Positions 25,851 to 32,677 of a stretch of DNA of 64,000 nt are shown piece after piece. Made by a program: the position numbers and the translations under genes. The notes under the pieces were generated by a model, which saw nothing but the letters and a program-made list of their open reading frames with translations, ran no database searches and was not told the origin of the DNA. Origin of the DNA: a virus (lineage: Duplodnaviria; Heunggongvirae; Uroviricota; Caudoviricetes). Positions within the stretch are counted from its first letter, which is position 1; each line of letters opens with the position of its first letter. Location of the stretch: IMG/VR virus record IMGVR_UViG_2609460332_000008; one strand, given 5' to 3'.

Positions 25851-26398
25851 ACAGCAATTCTCCCGCTGTTTCGTGCGCGGGCATACGCACTGGTCAGTGC
25901 ATCATAGCCGCGCAGCTCCCGCCCGGTTTCGCTCACAGGTAAAGGCACACCATGTCGGGCAAAGGCTTCCCGGATGCAGCGCATATGCCACTGTTTGAGC
26001 GTTTCGAGCACAATCTGCAACGATTCCCCGTGACACCATGCCAGCGTGGAAACACCCTGACCGCCATTACGTCTGGCCGTCAGGCGTTCAACGTATTTGT
26101 CCAGCGCGGCGTCGCTGATATCGGAAACGAAACCATCAAGGAACATCTGCTGCCAGATTTTGTAAATCTTCTCGCGCGGTGTGACATGCCCCTTAAAGCG
26201 ACGGCGGGGATGTTTTTTCTGCTTCTTAAAACCGCGCTCTTTCATGGCATCGAGCACCTGTTCCAGTTGTGCGACAGTCAGCTCGCGGCAACTGGTCTTG
26301 CCTGTGCACTGCACCAGAAAGGCGCGGTAAGTGTCATCGTCGAGTTGTAGATCACGACGGGCGACATGAATTAATTTAATCAGGGATGTGCGATTCAT
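25847..26398 (-). CDS. gemA: GemA-like protein (Mu gp16)
   Basis: GGAGG RBS before the ATG at 26398; position before mor. Confidence 0.65.
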   Translation of the reverse strand: MNRTSLIKLIHVARRDLQLDDDTYRAFLVQCTGKTSCRELTVAQLEQVLDAMKERGFKKQKKHPRRRFKGHVTPREKIYKIWQQMFLDGFVSDISDAALDKYVERLTARRNGGQGVSTLAWCHGESLQIVLETLKQWHMRCIREAFARHGVPLPVSETGRELRGYDALTSAYARARNSGRIAV

Positions 26399-26471
26399 TA
26401 TCGTACCTCCAGAAAAGGGGGCGGTGCGGCAACACCGCCAGAATCCACTCACTAAACAGAGGAAGCTTTTT

Positions 26472-26738
26472 ATGAAAAACAGTGAACAACCTTATGATGT
26501 TGCAGGGTATACCATTGCCTCAAGGTTGCTGATACTCCTTGTCAGAAAGGGGCTGATTACCGCAGAGGAAGGAAAAACAATCCTCAAATCCGCTGCAGTC
26601 GTAGCTGCAGAGGCTCCGGTATTGAGAACAACGAATGATTCCGCCCTGCAAATATCGCAGCTAATCACTGAAACCATCAGTTTGTTAGACCAAGATCCTG
26701 ATGAATATCAAAAGCCTCAGCCATCTGAGCATCCGTAA
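26472..26738 (+). CDS. Hypothetical 88-aa protein on the opposite strand to the surrounding operon; AT-rich
   Basis: GAGGA RBS 9 nt before the ATG; rare codons; 3' end overlaps the convergent gene 26677..26991 by ~60 bp. Confidence 0.45.
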   Translation: MKNSEQPYDVAGYTIASRLLILLVRKGLITAEEGKTILKSAAVVAAEAPVLRTTNDSALQISQLITETISLLDQDPDEYQKPQPSEHP

Positions 26739-26991
26739 GAATATCTTTATTTGATAGCCCCAGCCTGCGACGAATGTATTCCTCGCGGGCTGCTTCATTT
26801 TGTAGCGCCACGGCAGCTTCCACCTGGTTCATTTCACGGTTAATAATGCTCCGGACTTCTCTGGCGGTGAGGTCATGCTCAATACCATATTTAACGATAT
26901 CGTGCATACGTTCCAGCATCTTTAAATTAGCCATGACGCCATCAATATCAACTGGTGTGAATTTCATTTCTTTATTCTCTGGTTTATTCAT
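26677..26991 (-). CDS. Hypothetical 104-aa helical protein, AT-rich accessory gene
   Basis: GAGG RBS before the ATG at 26991. Confidence 0.5.
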   Translation of the reverse strand: MNKPENKEMKFTPVDIDGVMANLKMLERMHDIVKYGIEHDLTAREVRSIINREMNQVEAAVALQNEAAREEYIRRRLGLSNKDILTDAQMAEAFDIHQDLGLTN

Positions 26992-27166
26992 TTCGTAATA
27001 CCTCTTCGCAATAAAAGATTTCACTGGGATAACGTTTTTGTATGCGCTCCATCACCTGCATACATGCCTGTTCTGTGGGCCAGATTTTTTCCGTTACCGG
27101 AATGGCATCGCAGGCATCATTCCCACAGGTGCCAACCAGCAGGACAAAGCCAATTGACTTAATCAT
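26984..27166 (-). CDS. Small Cys-containing protein with hydrophobic N-terminus
   Basis: 60 aa, four Cys; start overlaps the upstream stop (ATGATTAA). Confidence 0.45.
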   Translation of the reverse strand: MIKSIGFVLLVGTCGNDACDAIPVTEKIWPTEQACMQVMERIQKRYPSEIFYCEEVLRNE

Positions 27167-27698
27167 GCTCGCTGATTTCCTGTGTTTCCGCCGGAACCGG
27201 TGAATAATCAAGAATGAGATAGCGCAGGACGTGGTCGGTGATATTCCAGCCACTGGAACCACAAATAAAGCGCCCCAGCCGGATATCGATATACGCCATC
27301 ACAAAACGGGGCATCCCCTGTTTGCACATCTCGTCATCCACTTCAGCAACGATGTAAACCGACTCGCAGGTCAGTACGCCTGTCGCAAATTCTTTTGCCA
27401 GTGCCGGAATTGCATTGCCTTCCAGCCAGGGCAAAGAGCGGCGGAACGCACACCATTGAGCATCATCAACAGCGGGGTGCTCCGTTGCGTTTCGTCTTAC
27501 AGGAGGCGTCGGACGAGGGCGCGGAACATCATAAAATCCGTTGCATTCTGTCAGCATTCCGGCATCAACCGCATCACGCAGGAAATACACCATTGACGAG
27601 GGAGGCATCTTCATTTTTTCAGCCAGAACGCCACAGGTCAGACGCCCGTAAGCCCGTAATAATGTGCTGACACCGTTCAGAACTTTTGCATCAACCAT
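27159..27698 (-). CDS. Hypothetical protein with helix-turn-helix-like N-terminus and Pro-rich linker
   Basis: AAGGA RBS; 179 aa; preceded by a 98-bp AT-rich gap after gam. Confidence 0.55.
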   Translation of the reverse strand: MVDAKVLNGVSTLLRAYGRLTCGVLAEKMKMPPSSMVYFLRDAVDAGMLTECNGFYDVPRPRPTPPVRRNATEHPAVDDAQWCAFRRSLPWLEGNAIPALAKEFATGVLTCESVYIVAEVDDEMCKQGMPRFVMAYIDIRLGRFICGSSGWNITDHVLRYLILDYSPVPAETQEISEHD

Positions 27699-27796
27699 TT
27701 TTTATTCCTTAGTAGTTTGTTTCAGGCGCGAGCAATCCCCTGACGCATCGCGCCATAATTAAAAGAAAGTGAATTAATTAAATATTCGTGGTGGTA

Positions 27797-28321
27797 TTAA
27801 ATACCGGCTTCCTGTTCAAACGGAATAATAGAAAAATCTTCAATGCCCGATTTAACTGTAATTCCGGCAACACCTGCGACCGCTTTCGGTTCCAGTAAAA
27901 TCGCTTCCTTGTTGATTTCCTGTTTCGTGCGAATAAAACGTTGCAGGCCAAGACGCTCCAGCGTTTCCATCACCGCATCCACACCGCGAATACTTACCGA
28001 TGGCGGGCGCTGACGCCATGACACATCGCCGGTTACCAGGTTTGCCGTCTTCACCTTGCCACCGTTCGTCAGTTCGTCGCGGTTCGCTTCACACCATCCC
28101 TGAACGCCTTTTGAAAGGGTTTCAATACTGGTTTTAAGTGGCGCAATCTGTGAGGCGTATTTCTCCGTAATATCAGCGATAGCGTCATTCATTTCCGTTT
28201 CAAGTCGTGCTGCTTCGCGTTGCAGGTCCCCAATCCGGCGGATATCACATACCACGGCATCGCGGGATTGCGGAACATAAGCCGCTGCGGCGTTCTTGAT
28301 TCGTTTTGCTGGTTTAGCCAT
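27797..28321 (-). CDS. gam: Gam, host-nuclease inhibitor (Ku-like DNA end binding)
   Basis: Near-identical to Mu Gam as recalled (MAKPAKRIK...VKTANLVTGDVSWR...FIRTKQEINKEAILLEPKAVAGVAGITVKSGIEDFSIIPFEQEAGI). Confidence 0.9.
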   Translation of the reverse strand: MAKPAKRIKNAAAAYVPQSRDAVVCDIRRIGDLQREAARLETEMNDAIADITEKYASQIAPLKTSIETLSKGVQGWCEANRDELTNGGKVKTANLVTGDVSWRQRPPSVSIRGVDAVMETLERLGLQRFIRTKQEINKEAILLEPKAVAGVAGITVKSGIEDFSIIPFEQEAGI

Positions 28322-28341
28322 ATAAATAAAGCTCCTGTTAA

Positions 28342-28632
28342 TTAATATTCACTGTATACAATGCTGGATACAGCACGATTGCTTAATTCCATCTTTTGGG
28401 CTATCACATGAATAGCTAGCCCTTCTTTATAAAGTTCACGACACAAATATTTGTCGTGCTCACTGATTCGGTAAACACACAACGATATTCCGTGCCTTCT
28501 GGCATGTGCCCGGAGAGCGGTTGTGGCAACTTTCAGTTTTTTCGCCATTTCTTCGACGGTCATTTTTCCGACATTGGCTTCGATAAATTCCCGGTCTTCG
28601 CGTGACCATCTTTTGCGAGGGATTATCATCAT
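28342..28632 (-). CDS. Small early protein with two HTH-like segments
   Basis: 96-aa ORF between B and gam. Confidence 0.5.
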   Translation of the reverse strand: MMIIPRKRWSREDREFIEANVGKMTVEEMAKKLKVATTALRAHARRHGISLCVYRISEHDKYLCRELYKEGLAIHVIAQKMELSNRAVSSIVYSEY

Positions 28633-29480: not shown

Positions 29481-30419
29481 TTACGTGCGCAGCAGGGTTG
29501 AAATATCAACGTCCAGGTCTAATTCACGGAAAGCCTGACGCAGATAATCTTCATTAACACGTTCACCTTTGCCGTGGGCAGTCATGGCCGCAAGGCGCAG
29601 CGAGTGGTTCAGGATGCGAAGCGCACCTGGTTTTTGTGCAATCTGCTGTAATAATTCCCGCTCGTTTTCGCCGGTAATTTGCCAGGCATCCGCAATGGCT
29701 TTTACATCGTCAATTTTTGTTTTATTAATTGCCGTCCGCTTTGCAATACGGGAAAACAGGCGGGCAAATTCAACTGTTCTGTTACCACCGGTCATGTTTG
29801 AATAAACACGGTGATTCCCCATCAGAACAAGGCCAATACGGGCGGATTCCTGCAACAGGCGGAGTTCTTCCAGAACTTCAGCGCCAAGATGATCAGCTTC
29901 GTCGATAATGACCAGCCCCTGCGTACCTTCAAGGCGGCGTCGCAAAGCGCGGGAGAGCGGCCCTTTGCGGCGCGGTGCGTCATTCATTCCCAGTTCATAA
30001 GCCAGTTCAGTGAGACATTCCAGAACACTGGCGCAGGATGGGGTAATGGTGATCATCCAAACATTGTTATTGGTGCGACGAAATTCGCGGGCTGCTTCAG
30101 TTTTTCCCACACCTGGATTACCGCAGATAACAGAAATACTTTCAGTCAGACTGGCAAAACGCATACTCGTCCAGATTTGGCGTGCTGTTCTGGTTTCCAC
30201 AAAACGCGGTGGTTCTGGCAGCTCTGCGGCACGGTGATAGTTCTCCAGCCAGCGTTCCAGCGTCTGCGCAACACGTTCATTGTCGCCGTTGTACTTGTTA
30301 TTCACGAATGCGCTTAACGTTCCTGCGGCCACGCCGGACTCGCGGGCAATTTGTGCATAAGTGGCTTTTTCACTTTCTACAAGCGTGCGCAGTCCTGCGC
30401 GAATATCGGAAATATTCAT
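29481..30419 (-). CDS. B: MuB, ATP-dependent target-DNA activator
   Basis: 312 aa with Walker A GNPGVGKT; immediately after the transposase gene. Confidence 0.9.
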
Positions 30420-30456: not shown

Positions 30457-32448
30457 TTAAATGGCTTTTTTACGTCTGTTCTGTTCCAGAATATCCAGTG
30501 AATGATTCAGATATTCATCACGATCAGTTTCATATTCATCATCGGGGTCCTGGTATTTCACCTGCACCGTGTTACCGGAAGGCCGGAAAATACCAACAAC
30601 CCTTGATTCTGGCGCTGCTGGTTCGGCTATCTGCGGCAGCAGTTCAGCAACTTCCAGCGCGTCCATTTGCTTCTGCGCCTTAATGGCTGCTTTAGTTGCA
30701 GATTTCAGTTGCTTCTGGCGGCGGCGATATTCACGGCCTGCCGCAGCATCATTAAACGCAACAGGTGCCAGACATTCCGCTTCACATATAAACCGACCCT
30801 CCAGGGTGTAGCAATAAACTGTGCTGTGTAGCTGCTGCGGATCAAACCTGACCACAACTTTTTTCACTCCGGCATTCATTAACGCCATGTTGTAATAAAC
30901 GTTTTTCGCGCCTTTAAGGGAGCCGCCAACTTTAAGCGTAAACTCGCCTTTGCGTGAAACGTTCACCGCTTCGGCAGGCAGTAACAGCATCCGTTTTTGT
31001 TCTTCGGTTGGCTTACGCACAATCGTTCTGACGTATTCACGCTCGAAAACATCATCAAACGAGAGTTTGCCCCCGCACATTTCTGTTTCACGGCCTGTTC
31101 TGGCATTGAACATCGCAACACCTTCAGCAAGGGTTTTCAGAAACAGCTCTGCATCAACAGCACGGTCGCCATAGTTATCAGGTTTTGCCTGCGGATTTGG
31201 CCCCGTATATGCGCCAGCCAGTGCCGGATGCTTATCAACGTATTCCTCAAGCCCACCAACACCGAAAGCACGTTCAACAGGTTTTGCCTGGCCCCAGCCT
31301 TTACCGGCAACAACGCTTGTCCAGTGCATTTTTGCGCCCATCAGTAAAAACAGCCCCTTTGGATCGTCCTCTTTTACCTTAAAGCGGTAACGATTGGGCG
31401 CGCCCCCCGTCAGCCATTTATTCGCTGCACCACGGGTGTTATCAATGGTGATGTGAAAATCCTCCGGGATACCGTAGCGAGTCACAACATCCATGAACGA
31501 GAGGCGAATTGAATCAATGTTCTCGCTCACATCGCAGCGCCAGCCCAGGATTTTTCGGGTTTTCACATCCTGCCAGAACCATGTTTTCGGGCGGATCACA
31601 TCACCGTTAAACCAGCGTACAAAGACGTTATGCAGATAACCGTCGCCGTTGATCCACTGCATGGCGTCCAGGTGTTCCACAGTTCGCTGCTGTGCAGGTA
31701 TCAGATGCATCAGTGCATGTTCACCTTCACGGCAGGCAACAACCATTGCCTCGTCCAGTTGCTGAATCCGGCGAAAGGCCGTGGCACGGGAGGGAATATT
31801 CCAGCCATGCTCACGTGCTGCCAGTTCCAGACGCTCATAACATTTGCGAAAGGCGGGTTTTTCCGGTCGCAGATAATCTGCAATCAGAAACTGCCAGGCA
31901 TCCTCGTCAAATTCACTTTTGTGAACGTTGCGACGGGATGCACCACGTCCATCAACAAGCGCAGCCGCCCAGTCAGGCTTCGCAAACTTCTGTACCTGGT
32001 AATATTTGTCTCGCAAAGTGGATGCGCTGACCTGGTAATGTCCTGCAACGGTCGCAAATGCCGTTTTCGTTGAAATCCCCTGGTTCAGCATTTCGTCTGC
32101 AGCCTGAACCGCAGGCAACCATTTTTCAGCAAGTTTGCGCTGGGAATCGCTGGCGTTATCCCATTTGCTCCACAGTGCCTCACGATCATAATCATGGGCT
32201 TCCAGCGTGGGGCGGGCGATTTCAAAACGGCCCTGGCTTGTTTCAATCTCTCCTTGTCTAAGCAATAACGCCGCTTTCGCTTCAACAGGTAAAGAGTTAG
32301 CATTGTATTCAATTGCTTTACCTCCTTTGACACCTGCTCTAGTGCGGTTTTGCCATCCTTGCTTCTTAGCGACATAAATCACACCAGCTGATGTTTTCGG
32401 CAAGCCAGGAAGATTTGCACACTCTTTCGGTGACACCCAAAGTTCCAT
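30457..32448 (-). CDS. A: MuA DDE transposase
   Basis: 663 aa from the ATG at 32448 (AGGTGA RBS), the length I recall for MuA; follows ner. Confidence 0.9.
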
Positions 32449-32449
32449 A

Positions 32450-32677
32450 TTATTCACCTGCTTGATATCGGCTAGGCCAGATGACTTCCGGTTTAGTTTC
32501 AAGGGCGTTAGCAATAATCTGTTCGCCCTTTGGCCAGTGCCGTTCTAGCGCATTAGCTAATGTTGTTGGCGCATAACCAAACTGCCGAGAAAGAGCTGAT
32601 AAAGAGAGCTTTCTTTTCTTAAGTCCCGCAATCACATCAGCACGATGCCAATCACGGACCTTTTCGTTGGAACACAT
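32450..32677 (-). CDS. ner: Ner, DNA-binding negative regulator of early transcription
   Basis: 75 aa with the Ner HTH region; directly upstream of A. Confidence 0.85.

What the first reader, a model, noticed from the sequence alone, without database searches (positions are those of the whole stretch)
26984..27698. Two uncharacterised early genes between gam and gemA: HTH/Pro-linker protein and a small Cys-rich protein
A 179-aa protein with an HTH-like N-terminus, a Pro-rich linker and an unrecognised C-terminal domain is translationally coupled to a 60-aa protein with a hydrophobic N-terminus and four cysteines. They follow a 98-bp AT-rich gap after gam that contains a GC hairpin, suggesting an internal regulatory point. 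I could not assign either to any known Mu gene.
Basis: inference. Interest (0 to 1): 0.45.

Follow-up and report, generated by a model that had tools for sequence, protein, structure and literature searches.

The report
Mu gp11 plus swapped small gene
The two genes are real but ordinary: one is the ortholog of phage Mu's uncharacterised early gene gp11, and the other is a small four-cysteine accessory gene that here replaces Mu genes gp12 and gp13; neither has a known function.

Summary
On the minus strand, a 179-aa ORF (27159-27698) overlaps a 60-aa ORF (26984-27166) by 8 nt (ATGATTAA). Both follow a 98-bp AT-rich gap after gam that holds a GC hairpin.

The 179-aa protein is the ortholog of Mu gp11 (88% identity; Pfam Gp11_C, 133 bits). 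It has a winged-helix fold, a disordered Pro-rich linker and a Gp11_C domain with no solved relative. Its function is unknown.

The 60-aa protein is not a Mu gene. A 212-bp segment here replaces 724 bp of Mu (gp11 tail, gp12, gp13). It belongs to PHROG 16556, with at least 279 clusters in Enterobacterales, found in prophage early operons and in some chromosomal sites. AlphaFold2 (pLDDT 90) gives a soluble β-β-α-β fold, so the hydrophobic N-terminus is a core strand, not a signal peptide or membrane anchor. A link to YebW/DUF1482 is suggestive but unproven.

In 34 Mu-like loci the small gene and gp12/gp13 never co-occur. Both genes are under purifying selection (dN/dS 0.11 and 0.17).

The hairpin is conserved across E. 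coli and Salmonella Mu-like phages, with compensatory stem changes. It always follows gam or DUF3164 and is not a canonical terminator.

Verdict: known, uncharacterised families. Low to moderate interest.

The parts
27797..28321 (-). gam (host-nuclease inhibitor); the upstream neighbour, given for context
   Evidence: Pfam Phage_Mu_Gam E=2.9e-43; PHROG 491; aligned with Mu Mup10.
27699..27796 (-). 98-bp AT-rich intergenic gap between gam and gp11
   Evidence: 38% GC. 91% column identity with Mu and SfMu. No sigma-70-like promoter or canonical terminator. No Rfam match.
27725..27754 (-). Conserved stem-loop: outer stem GGCGCGA/TCGCGCC, inner stem GTC/GA(C/U), loop AGGG. It lies inside the conserved element ATGGCG…CGTCAGGGGA…CGCCTGAA at 27721-27756
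   Evidence: One match in the window against 0 expected. 89 matches in IMG/VR Mu-like contigs, always after Gam or DUF3164. Stem pair 7-28 is CG in 13 and UA in 7 of 20 distinct variants and is never broken; 95% of cells are paired against 36-53% when slid. No U-tract follows the stem.
27159..27698 (-). Ortholog of Mu gp11 (179 aa)
   Evidence: 88% identity to Mu Mup11; PHROG 1949 E=4.6e-104; median dN/dS 0.17; SD AAGGA lies 7 nt before the ATG.
27525..27698 (-). gp11 residues 1-58: winged-helix domain (helices 4-17, 22-29 and 33-45, then a wing)
27444..27524 (-). gp11 residues 59-85: Pro-rich, variable, disordered linker (PRPRPTPPVRRNATEHPAVDDAQWCAF)
   Evidence: 6 Pro in 27 residues; pLDDT 32-46; the most variable stretch of alignment A2.
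27198..27431 (-). gp11 residues 90-167: Gp11_C domain (small alpha/beta domain)
27159..27166 (-). Overlapping stop/start junction ATGATTAA (gp11 stop, small-gene start)
   Evidence: Read directly from the sequence. The gp11 tail …TQE(I/V)SEHD co-occurs with the small gene in 15 of 15 prophage copies.
26984..27166 (-). 60-aa four-cysteine protein (PHROG 16556): soluble beta-beta-alpha-beta fold
   Evidence: PHROG 16556 E=1.4e-28. 279 clusters in Enterobacterales. Invariant G6 F7 C14 C19 A21 P23 C35 C53. AF2 pLDDT 90. Median dN/dS 0.11. Not related to Mu gp13.
26978..27189 (-). Cassette segment with no DNA homology to Mu. It replaces Mu's gp11 tail, gp12 and gp13 (724 bp)
   Evidence: blastn against Mu: homology ends at window 27190 and resumes at 26977. 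The megablast match also stops at about 27193.
26677..26991 (-). gp14-like gene (104 aa from the ATG at 26991); the downstream neighbour, start-stop coupled (ATGAATAA)
   Evidence: 71% identity to Mu gp14; RefSeq nt; junction sequence.

Best explanation
The interval is part of the 'semi-essential' stretch of the early operon of an E. coli Mu-like prophage.

Shown:
(1) The 179-aa gene is the ortholog of Mu gp11. It is a two-domain protein: a winged helix, a flexible Pro-rich linker, and the Gp11_C domain.
(2) The 60-aa gene is a horizontally exchanged accessory cassette. In this lineage it occupies the slot that holds gp12 (with or without gp13) in Mu. It encodes a soluble, acidic beta-beta-alpha-beta protein with four invariant cysteines.
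(3) The genes lie in the same orientation as the early operon and are joined by overlapping stop/start codons. A conserved stem-loop precedes them, marking the border between the gam/DUF3164 module and a highly mosaic accessory region.

Inferred:
(a) gp11 acts as an adaptor rather than a classical repressor. Its non-basic winged helix binds a nucleic acid or a protein, and Gp11_C is an effector or oligomerisation module that phages recombine with other N-terminal modules.
(b) The product of the coupled downstream gene (gp12 or the 60-aa protein) works with gp11 or in the same pathway. That pathway is a dispensable host-interaction or takeover function, not a core replication step.
(c) The cysteines of the small protein bind a metal or sense redox state.
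(d) The hairpin acts on the early mRNA. It may be a stabilising stem at the new 5' end after cleavage in the AU-rich stretch just upstream, or a processing site, and so set expression of the accessory region.

I put identity and architecture at about 0.9, and the mechanistic inferences (a) to (d) at about 0.25-0.35 each.
For: Identity of gp11. Winged-helix fold. Linker and domain confidence.

Gp11_C as a shuffled module: it is found behind a double-HTH N-terminus (P0248), behind regions with weak Ead/Ea22-like matches (P0257, P0259), and behind unrecognised N-termini.

Cassette replacement: breakpoints at 27190 and 26977. Among 34 loci spanning hairpin to GemA, the small gene is in 16 and gp12/gp13 in 18, never together. 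The gp11 tail tracks the cassette in 15 of 15 copies.

Horizontal mobility of the small gene: in Yersinia, Aeromonas, Hafnia and Serratia temperate phages it sits at the distal end of the early-left operon, after RecT/SSB and before xis/int. Stand-alone chromosomal copies exist in Pantoea, Mixta and Edwardsiella.

Soluble fold. Purifying selection.

Hairpin conservation and covariation.

Dispensability and unknown function of the region: PMC3820752. Frameshifted copies of both genes occur in some prophages.
Against: There is no direct functional evidence for either protein. No transcript, protein or phenotype data were available, and the literature search found nothing on gp11.

The gp11 model is poor overall (mean pLDDT 60, winged-helix domain ~55), so the winged-helix assignment rests on a low-confidence model plus a faint HMM hit.

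The small gene also occurs without gp11, in lambdoid-type phages and in chromosomes, so it cannot strictly need gp11 as a partner. Conversely, gp12 occurs without gp11 in L025.

Mutual exclusivity in 34 related loci may reflect only a few recombination events.

I could not measure Cys-Cys distances because no coordinates were available. From the topology, C35 probably lies far from C14, C19 and C53, so a single Cys4 site in a monomer is doubtful.

Four outer stem pairs and the loop of the hairpin were fixed by my search pattern. Only two pairs carry covariation, possibly from one or two events. A palindromic protein-binding DNA site, or a recombination boundary, would look similar.
Confidence: 0.55

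Rival explanations
1. gp11 is a sequence-specific DNA-binding transcription regulator. On this view it controls an internal regulatory point of the early operon or host genes.
Confidence: 0.15
2. The 60-aa protein is a distant member of the YebW/DUF1482 family of enterobacterial small proteins. On this view it is a host-derived stress or physiology modulator that phages captured, and it works on its own rather than with gp11.
For: BLASTP of the window protein against E. coli K-12 YebW gives E=0.002 with 34% identity over 50 aa; three Cys and the 'TEQxC' motif align. Both families are about 60 aa, start with a hydrophobic strand and have four invariant Cys. Three of 47 members touch Pfam DUF1482 at E~0.04. 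Stand-alone chromosomal copies share a -10-like TATACT upstream. YebW overexpression raises MICs of gentamicin, ceftriaxone and levofloxacin twofold (PMC5857375 with corrigendum PMC9676061). Its promoter is bound by sigma-S RNA polymerase (PMC4447067).
Against: The profile-profile comparison is weak: hhalign probability 7%, E=0.005, 26 columns. The window protein itself has no Pfam hit. Cys spacing differs (C-x4-C against C-x5-C) and the fourth Cys does not align. The YebW phenotype is small, and the knockout has none.
Confidence: 0.3
3. The 60-aa protein is a secreted or lipid-anchored envelope protein, for example a Cor/Llp-like superinfection-exclusion lipoprotein. This was suggested by the hydrophobic N-terminus followed by Cys.
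For: The N-terminus MIKSIGFVLLVGTC resembles a short signal peptide plus lipobox. Some relatives read LLVSAC, which fits [LVI][ASTVI][GAS]C.
Against: The window protein has Thr at position -1. Many members have Pro at -1 (LLVSPC). Most start directly with MLIGFV, with no basic n-region, or carry Asp there (MAD…, MVD…). Only 11-13 residues precede the Cys. AF2 places residues 2-12 as a central beta-strand at pLDDT 94. The 'mature' part would lose a core strand.
Confidence: 0.04
4. The conserved stem-loop after gam is not an expression signal. It is a module-boundary sequence, a short conserved linker at which mosaic Mu-like genomes recombine, or a DNA-level protein-binding palindrome.
For: It sits exactly where gene content switches: Gam or DUF3164 upstream, and at least five different gene sets downstream. 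The flanking AT-rich sequence is conserved too. No U-tract, promoter or Rfam family was found.
Against: Compensatory changes keep the stem paired (CG to UA, GC to AU). A pure recombination linker does not require that. A DNA palindrome bound by a dimer would be expected to keep its bases rather than swap them.
Confidence: 0.3
5. One or both ORFs are decaying remnants with no function in this prophage.
For: Frameshifted or stop-containing copies exist elsewhere: P0010-P0012, Hafnia phage yong1, L060 and L061. The region is dispensable in Mu.
Against: Both ORFs are intact here and identical in E. coli KFu019. dN/dS is 0.11 and 0.17. Cysteines and core residues are invariant across genera.
Confidence: 0.03

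Closest known systems
Bacteriophage Mu gp11 (Mup11, NP_050615; formerly E10/E11/E12); Pfam PF25754 Gp11_C; PHROG 1949
   Same: 88% identical over the whole length. Same place directly after gam and the conserved hairpin, with the same three-part architecture. The gap and ribosome-binding site are almost identical to Mu's.
   Different: The last ~10 residues differ (…PVPAETQEISEHD here, …PAPAAVQEVA in Mu), because the recombination breakpoint lies inside the 3' end of the gene. Here the gene is coupled to the 60-aa gene instead of gp12.
Mu gp12 (PF26885 Phage_Mu_Gp12, 176 aa) and Mu gp13 (60 aa, Cys-rich zinc-ribbon-like)
   Same: They occupy the same slot between gp11 and gp14 and are start-stop coupled to gp11. 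gp13 is also 60 aa and Cys-rich. In 34 loci they are mutually exclusive with the 60-aa gene.
   Different: No sequence relationship: BLASTP E=0.099 over 6 residues, hhalign probability 0.4%, gp11 against gp12 E=11. gp13 has CxxC pairs typical of zinc ribbons. The 60-aa protein has C-x4-C…C…C on a beta-beta-alpha-beta fold.
PHROG 16556: small uncharacterised proteins in the early-left operons of temperate Yersinia, Aeromonas, Hafnia and Serratia phages
   Same: 40-57% identity. Same length, the same invariant motif (G-F-x-L-L-V-x-x-C-G-x-D-A-C-D-A-L-P-V) and the same four Cys. Always the last or nearly last small gene of an early operon, often overlapping the preceding gene's stop.
   Different: Those phages are integrase-type (lambdoid or P2-like), not transposable. 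The preceding gene there is RecT or another unrelated protein, not gp11.
E. coli K-12 YebW (b1837), Pfam DUF1482
   Same: About 60 aa, with a hydrophobic first strand, four invariant Cys and a shared (Y/W)-x-T-E-x-x-C motif. BLASTP E=0.002.
   Different: Homology is not established (hhalign probability 7%). Cys spacing and the C-terminal half differ. YebW is a core Enterobacteriaceae gene next to pphA, not a phage gene.
Small phage proteins with the same fold: anti-CRISPR AcrIC8 (PDB 8g9s); uncharacterised proteins of Salmonella phage 9NA and Serratia phages SMP and MTx; the ClpS adaptor

Membership tests
Mu gp11 family (Pfam PF25754 Gp11_C / PHROG 1949) | Gp11_C domain scoring above Pfam's gathering threshold | tested here: met
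   133.5 bits against a cutoff of 27; profile positions 1-78 of 78; residues 90-167.
Mu gp11 family (Pfam PF25754 Gp11_C / PHROG 1949) | Full-length similarity to Mu Mup11 | tested here: met
   88% identity, 176 of 176 aligned, E=3e-108; PHROG 1949 E=4.6e-104.
Mu gp11 family (Pfam PF25754 Gp11_C / PHROG 1949) | Position in the early operon downstream of gam and upstream of gemA | tested here: met
   Gene order A, B, …, gam, [gap], gp11, …, gp14, gp15(opposite strand), gemA, mor, as in NC_000929.
Mu gp12 (PF26885) / Mu gp13 | Sequence similarity of the 60-aa protein, or of any ORF in the interval, to gp12 or gp13 | tested here: not met
   No Pfam hit. BLASTP against gp13 E=0.099 over 6 aa. hhalign probability 0.4%. 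No DNA homology to Mu between window 27190 and 26977.
PHROG 16556 | Significant full-length match to the family profile | tested here: met
   E=1.4e-28, residues 3-59 on profile positions 2-55 of 55.
DUF1482 / YebW | Pfam DUF1482 match above threshold | tested here: not met
   The window protein has no hit. Three of 47 relatives reach E~0.04 only.
DUF1482 / YebW | Profile-profile homology to a YebW alignment | tested here: inconclusive
   hhalign A3 against A6: probability 7.2%, E=0.005, 26 columns. Pairwise BLASTP E=0.002.
DUF1482 / YebW | Same three-dimensional fold | not testable with these tools
afdb50 was unavailable.
Bacterial lipoproteins / Sec signal peptides | Basic n-region, hydrophobic h-region and lipobox [LVI][ASTVI][GAS]C | tested here: not met
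   The window protein has V-G-T-C, with Thr at -1. Relatives often have Pro at -1 and no basic residue before the hydrophobic run. AF2 models residues 2-12 as a core strand, pLDDT 94.
Winged-helix (MarR/ArsR-type) transcription regulators | Winged-helix fold | tested here: met
Winged-helix (MarR/ArsR-type) transcription regulators | Match to a curated HTH family model | tested here: not met
   No Pfam HTH family. Best NCBIfam hit E=0.054, 13 bits against a cutoff of 220.
Winged-helix (MarR/ArsR-type) transcription regulators | Sequence-specific DNA binding | not testable with these tools
   Indirect only: the domain has pI 6.0 and a recognition helix poor in basic residues, which argues against it but does not exclude it.
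Rho-independent terminator | GC-rich stem followed by a U-tract | tested here: not met
   The stem is present, but it is followed by CUGAAACAAAC. The terminator scan does not report it.
Any Rfam RNA family | Covariance-model match in 26300-28500 | tested here: not met
   No match up to E=1.
Known anti-phage defence proteins (PADLOC) | Match to a PADLOC model | tested here: not met
   No hit for either protein.

The most novel reading that the evidence does not exclude
Gp11 is a docking adaptor, and the gene translationally coupled to it (gp12/gp13 in Mu, the 60-aa four-Cys protein here) is an interchangeable effector. Together they would form a modular host-takeover or counter-defence unit in the semi-essential region of Mu-like phages. 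The conserved hairpin after gam/DUF3164 would be an RNA processing or stabilising signal that sets the dosage of this accessory block. The 60-aa protein would then be a phage-borrowed relative of the YebW family, giving that orphan E. coli family its first functional context.
Probability: 0.1. Interest if true: 0.55.

Novelty: new member of a known kind. Interest (0 to 1): 0.27.

Why it matters
As found, it matters little. The larger gene is a close ortholog of Mu gp11, and the smaller is one more member of an already catalogued, unstudied phage protein family.

The follow-up gives three modest, testable leads:
1. Mu-like phages have a defined swap site after gp11, where gp12/gp13 and an unrelated four-Cys mini-protein are alternatives.
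2. That mini-protein family is widespread in Enterobacterales, both in prophage early operons and in chromosomes. It may be distantly related to E. coli YebW.
3. A conserved stem-loop, undescribed as far as I could find, marks the start of the mosaic accessory part of the Mu early operon.

The semi-essential region of Mu has stayed functionally opaque for decades, so any of these could serve as an entry point. None overturns current understanding.

Tried and rejected
- **Diverged Mu gp13.** Rejected.
- **Lipoprotein or signal peptide.** Rejected on the lipobox, the n-region and the AF2 model.
- **Curated libraries.** Pfam, NCBIfam and PADLOC gave nothing for the small protein, and only Gp11_C for gp11.
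- **Sequence search of PDB with both family profiles.** Nothing below E=0.4.
- **BFVD search.** Only uncharacterised phage proteins.
- **afdb50.** Not available.
- **Intergenic gap.** Promoter and terminator scan and Rfam found nothing. The fold z-score of the whole gap is only -1.7.
- **Regulator boxes upstream of chromosomal copies.** No LexA, Fur, Zur, OxyR, SoxS, CRP, FNR or IscR box.
- **Literature.** Searches on Mu gp11, the semi-essential region, arm/cim/sot and the accession numbers returned nothing on these genes. I could not check whether the classical 'arm' function maps here.
- **Exhaustive profile search for gp11.** The family is small (48 clusters at 50% identity) and gave no fusion to a domain of known function.
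- **Cys-Cys distances.** Could not be measured, because model coordinates are not exposed.
Full report
**Setting.** The window carries a Mu-like prophage with its early operon on the minus strand. The order is MuA (30457-32514), MuB (29481-30419), several small ORFs, gam (27797-28321), the two genes of the finding, a gp14-like gene (26677-26991), a gp15-like ORF on the opposite strand (26388-26738), gemA, mor and the endolysin. The 1.1-kb stretch around the finding is 100% identical to the chromosome of E. coli KFu019. The same arrangement occurs in 27 of 5,426 complete E. coli genomes, and every gene in it is annotated 'hypothetical protein'.

**Observation.**
- A 179-aa ORF lies at 27159-27698 and a 60-aa ORF at 26984-27166.
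- They share an 8-nt stop/start overlap: …GAG CAT GAT TAA, with the ATG inside CATGAT.
- A 98-bp gap of 38% GC follows gam.
- A GC stem (GGCGCGA/TCGCGCC) lies at 27725-27754.
- The same overlap geometry (ATGAATAA) joins the small gene to gp14.

Both genes are real coding genes. Across Mu-like prophage alleles the median dN/dS is 0.17 for the large gene (128 pairs) and 0.11 for the small one (36 pairs).

**The 179-aa protein is Mu gp11.**
- It is 88% identical to Mup11 over 176 residues, and it sits in the same place.
- It scores 133.5 bits on Pfam PF25754 'Phage Mu Gp11 C-terminal domain' against a cutoff of 27. It matches PHROG 1949 at E=4.6e-104.
- The old Mu left-end record split this gene into E10, E11 and E12 because of frameshift errors.

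**Architecture of gp11.**
- The AlphaFold2 model is weak overall (pLDDT 60). It gives three helices (4-17, 22-29, 33-45) followed by a wing, a disordered linker with 6 Pro in 27 residues, and a better-defined alpha/beta C-terminal domain (pLDDT about 77-91).
- The 'HTH-like' call is therefore right at the fold level. But the domain is not basic (pI 6.0; whole protein 5.2), its third helix carries one Arg and two Asp, and no curated HTH model is matched. I therefore favour an adaptor role over a classical repressor.

**Gp11_C as a module.**
- The whole family is small: 48 clusters at 50% identity among 1.84 billion proteins.
- The domain occurs behind other N-terminal modules: a double HTH in P0248, regions with weak Ead/Ea22-like coiled-coil matches in P0257 and P0259, and unrecognised ones.

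**The 60-aa protein is not a Mu gene.**
- DNA homology to Mu stops at window 27190, ten codons before the gp11 stop. It resumes at 26977, just inside gp14. So 212 bp here replace 724 bp of Mu that encode the gp11 tail, gp12 and gp13.
- The protein is unrelated to gp13, despite the equal length and Cys-richness.
- It belongs to PHROG 16556.
- Its closer relatives lie in Mu-like prophages of E. coli, Shigella and Salmonella.
- At 40-57% identity it occurs in integrase-type temperate phages of Yersinia, Aeromonas, Hafnia and Serratia. There it is the last small gene of the early-left operon, after RecT/SSB and before xis/int, among Lar-like and methylase genes.
- A profile search found 279 clusters, all in Enterobacterales, all 56-69 aa and none annotated.
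- Some copies are stand-alone chromosomal genes in syntenic, non-phage surroundings: Pantoea and Mixta next to a DUF305 gene, and Edwardsiella. These share a -10-like TATACT upstream and no recognisable stress-regulator box.

**Fold of the small protein.**
- G6, F7, C14, C19, A21, P23, C35 and C53 are invariant in 47 sequences.
- With that alignment AlphaFold2 gives a confident model (pLDDT 90): strand 2-12, a loop carrying C14 and C19, strand 21-29, helix 32-45, strand 50-59.
- The hydrophobic N-terminus is thus a core strand.
- Three family features also argue against a secreted or membrane reading: there is no basic n-region, Pro or Thr lies just before the Cys, and only 11-13 residues precede it. 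This excludes a lipoprotein or membrane anchor.

**Possible link to YebW.**
- Three family members touch Pfam DUF1482 at E~0.04.
- I fetched E. coli K-12 yebW, annotated DUF1482.
- BLASTP against the window protein gives E=0.002 with 34% identity over 50 residues. Three Cys and a 'TEQxC' motif align.
- YebW also has four invariant Cys and a hydrophobic first strand.
- But the profile-profile comparison reaches only 7% probability (E=0.005). The relationship is a lead, not a result.
- YebW itself is uncharacterised. Overexpression raises three antibiotic MICs twofold and the knockout has no phenotype (PMC5857375, corrected in PMC9676061). Its promoter is a sigma-S ChIP target (PMC4447067).

**A swap site after gp11.**
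- I collected 89 Mu-like contigs through the hairpin motif and typed their genes by tblastn.
- Among the 34 loci that span hairpin to GemA, 16 carry the small gene and 18 carry gp12 and/or gp13. None carries both.
- The gp11 C-terminal tail follows the cassette strictly: …TQE(I/V)SEHD with the small gene in 15 of 15 copies, and …EVA with gp12. This is expected, because the small gene's ATG is embedded in the His-Asp codons.
- In Salmonella and SfMu the common order is DUF5420, gp11, gp12. The window lacks both DUF5420 and gp12.
- The small gene can occur without gp11 (L061, frameshifted, and all the non-Mu phages), and gp12 can occur without gp11 (L025).
- These loci are related to one another, so the exclusivity may rest on few recombination events.

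**The hairpin.**
- The gap is nearly invariant in Mu and SfMu, even where the downstream gene differs.
- The core ATGGCG…CGTCAGGGGA…CGCCTGAA recurs in Salmonella Mu-like prophages. It always comes after Gam or its alternative DUF3164, and before at least five different gene sets.
- In 20 distinct variants, stem pair 7-28 is C-G in 13 and U-A in 7 and is never broken. Pair 8-27 is GC in 6, AU in 4, UG in 1 and unpaired in 9.
- 95% of cells pair, against 36-53% when the partner is slid. No shuffle out of 500 reaches the observed covariation score.
- Caveats: the four outer pairs and the loop were fixed by my search pattern, and the covariation may reflect one or two events.
- There is no U-tract, no promoter-like site and no Rfam family.
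I favour an RNA-level role: an AU-rich stretch of the kind RNase E cleaves (general knowledge), followed by a stem that would cap the downstream fragment. A recombination boundary or a DNA-binding palindrome cannot be excluded.

**Verdict.** The finding is a correct description of two genuine but ordinary accessory genes. One is already known as Mu gp11, a family with a Pfam entry and no known function. The other is a member of a catalogued but unstudied small-protein family, which here replaces gp12/gp13. Nothing points to a new kind of system. The modest novelty lies in the defined swap site, the breadth and possible YebW affinity of the four-Cys mini-protein family, and the conserved hairpin. 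Function remains inferred only.

Noticed in passing
window 27721-27756 (-); also L001, L002, L020-L024 and 89 IMG/VR loci L025-L113: A conserved stem-loop element (ATGGCG…CGTCAGGGGA…CGCCTGAA) follows Gam or DUF3164 in E. coli, Shigella and Salmonella Mu-like phages, whatever gene comes next. It shows compensatory stem changes. It is not in Rfam and, as far as I could find, is not described.
   Followed up: yes
L020-L023, L025, L035 (Salmonella and other Mu-like prophages): In many Mu-like prophages a DUF3164 protein (212 aa) occupies the position of Gam, directly upstream of the same hairpin. This suggests that Gam and DUF3164 are alternative modules, possibly with analogous functions.
   Followed up: no
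P0248, P0249, P0257, P0259, P0274, P0282: The Gp11_C domain is combined with different N-terminal modules: a double HTH, weak Ead/Ea22-like coiled coil, or unknown. It is a shuffled phage early-protein module, not a fixed partner of the winged helix.
   Followed up: partly
L009 5001-5171, L014 5001-5171, L018 5001-5201: Stand-alone chromosomal copies of the four-Cys mini-protein lie in non-phage, partly syntenic surroundings in Pantoea, Mixta and Edwardsiella. They share a TATACT -10-like box about 55 nt upstream.
   Followed up: partly
L114 5122-5313 (E. coli K-12 yebW): YebW (DUF1482) resembles the phage mini-protein in length, first strand, four Cys and a TEQxC motif. The Serratia prophage copy lies about 1.7 kb from yebY-copD-copC and about 4.6 kb from holE, a gene cluster that in K-12 lies within about 3 kb of yebW. 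The Yersinia phage copy is directly followed by a holE-like (theta) gene.
   Followed up: partly
P0010-P0012 (E. coli); L007 3486-3665 (Hafnia phage yong1); L060, L061: Some prophages and phages carry frameshifted or stop-interrupted copies of the small gene, and L060 carries a frameshifted gp11. This is consistent with dispensable accessory genes.
   Followed up: partly
window 26420-26439 (-): A terminator-like hairpin (GGCGGTGTTGCCGCACCGCC followed by CCCTTTTCTG) lies on the early-operon strand, just upstream of the gemA start that RefSeq annotates and next to the start of the opposite-strand gp15-like ORF. It could be an attenuator or a bidirectional element.
   Followed up: no
window 26388-26738 (+) and 26677-26991 (-): The gp15-like ORF on the opposite strand overlaps the 3' end of the gp14-like gene by about 60 nt, as in Mu. 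This convergent overlap inside the early operon is conserved at 53% protein identity.
   Followed up: no
L002 3194-3748 (SfMu); L020 2419-2997; L024 1868-2997: DUF5420 and a ~182-aa ORF cross-hit in tblastn, so they look like paralogues. They are inserted, sometimes in tandem, between the hairpin and gp11 in SfMu and the Salmonella prophages, but are absent from Mu and from this window.
   Followed up: no
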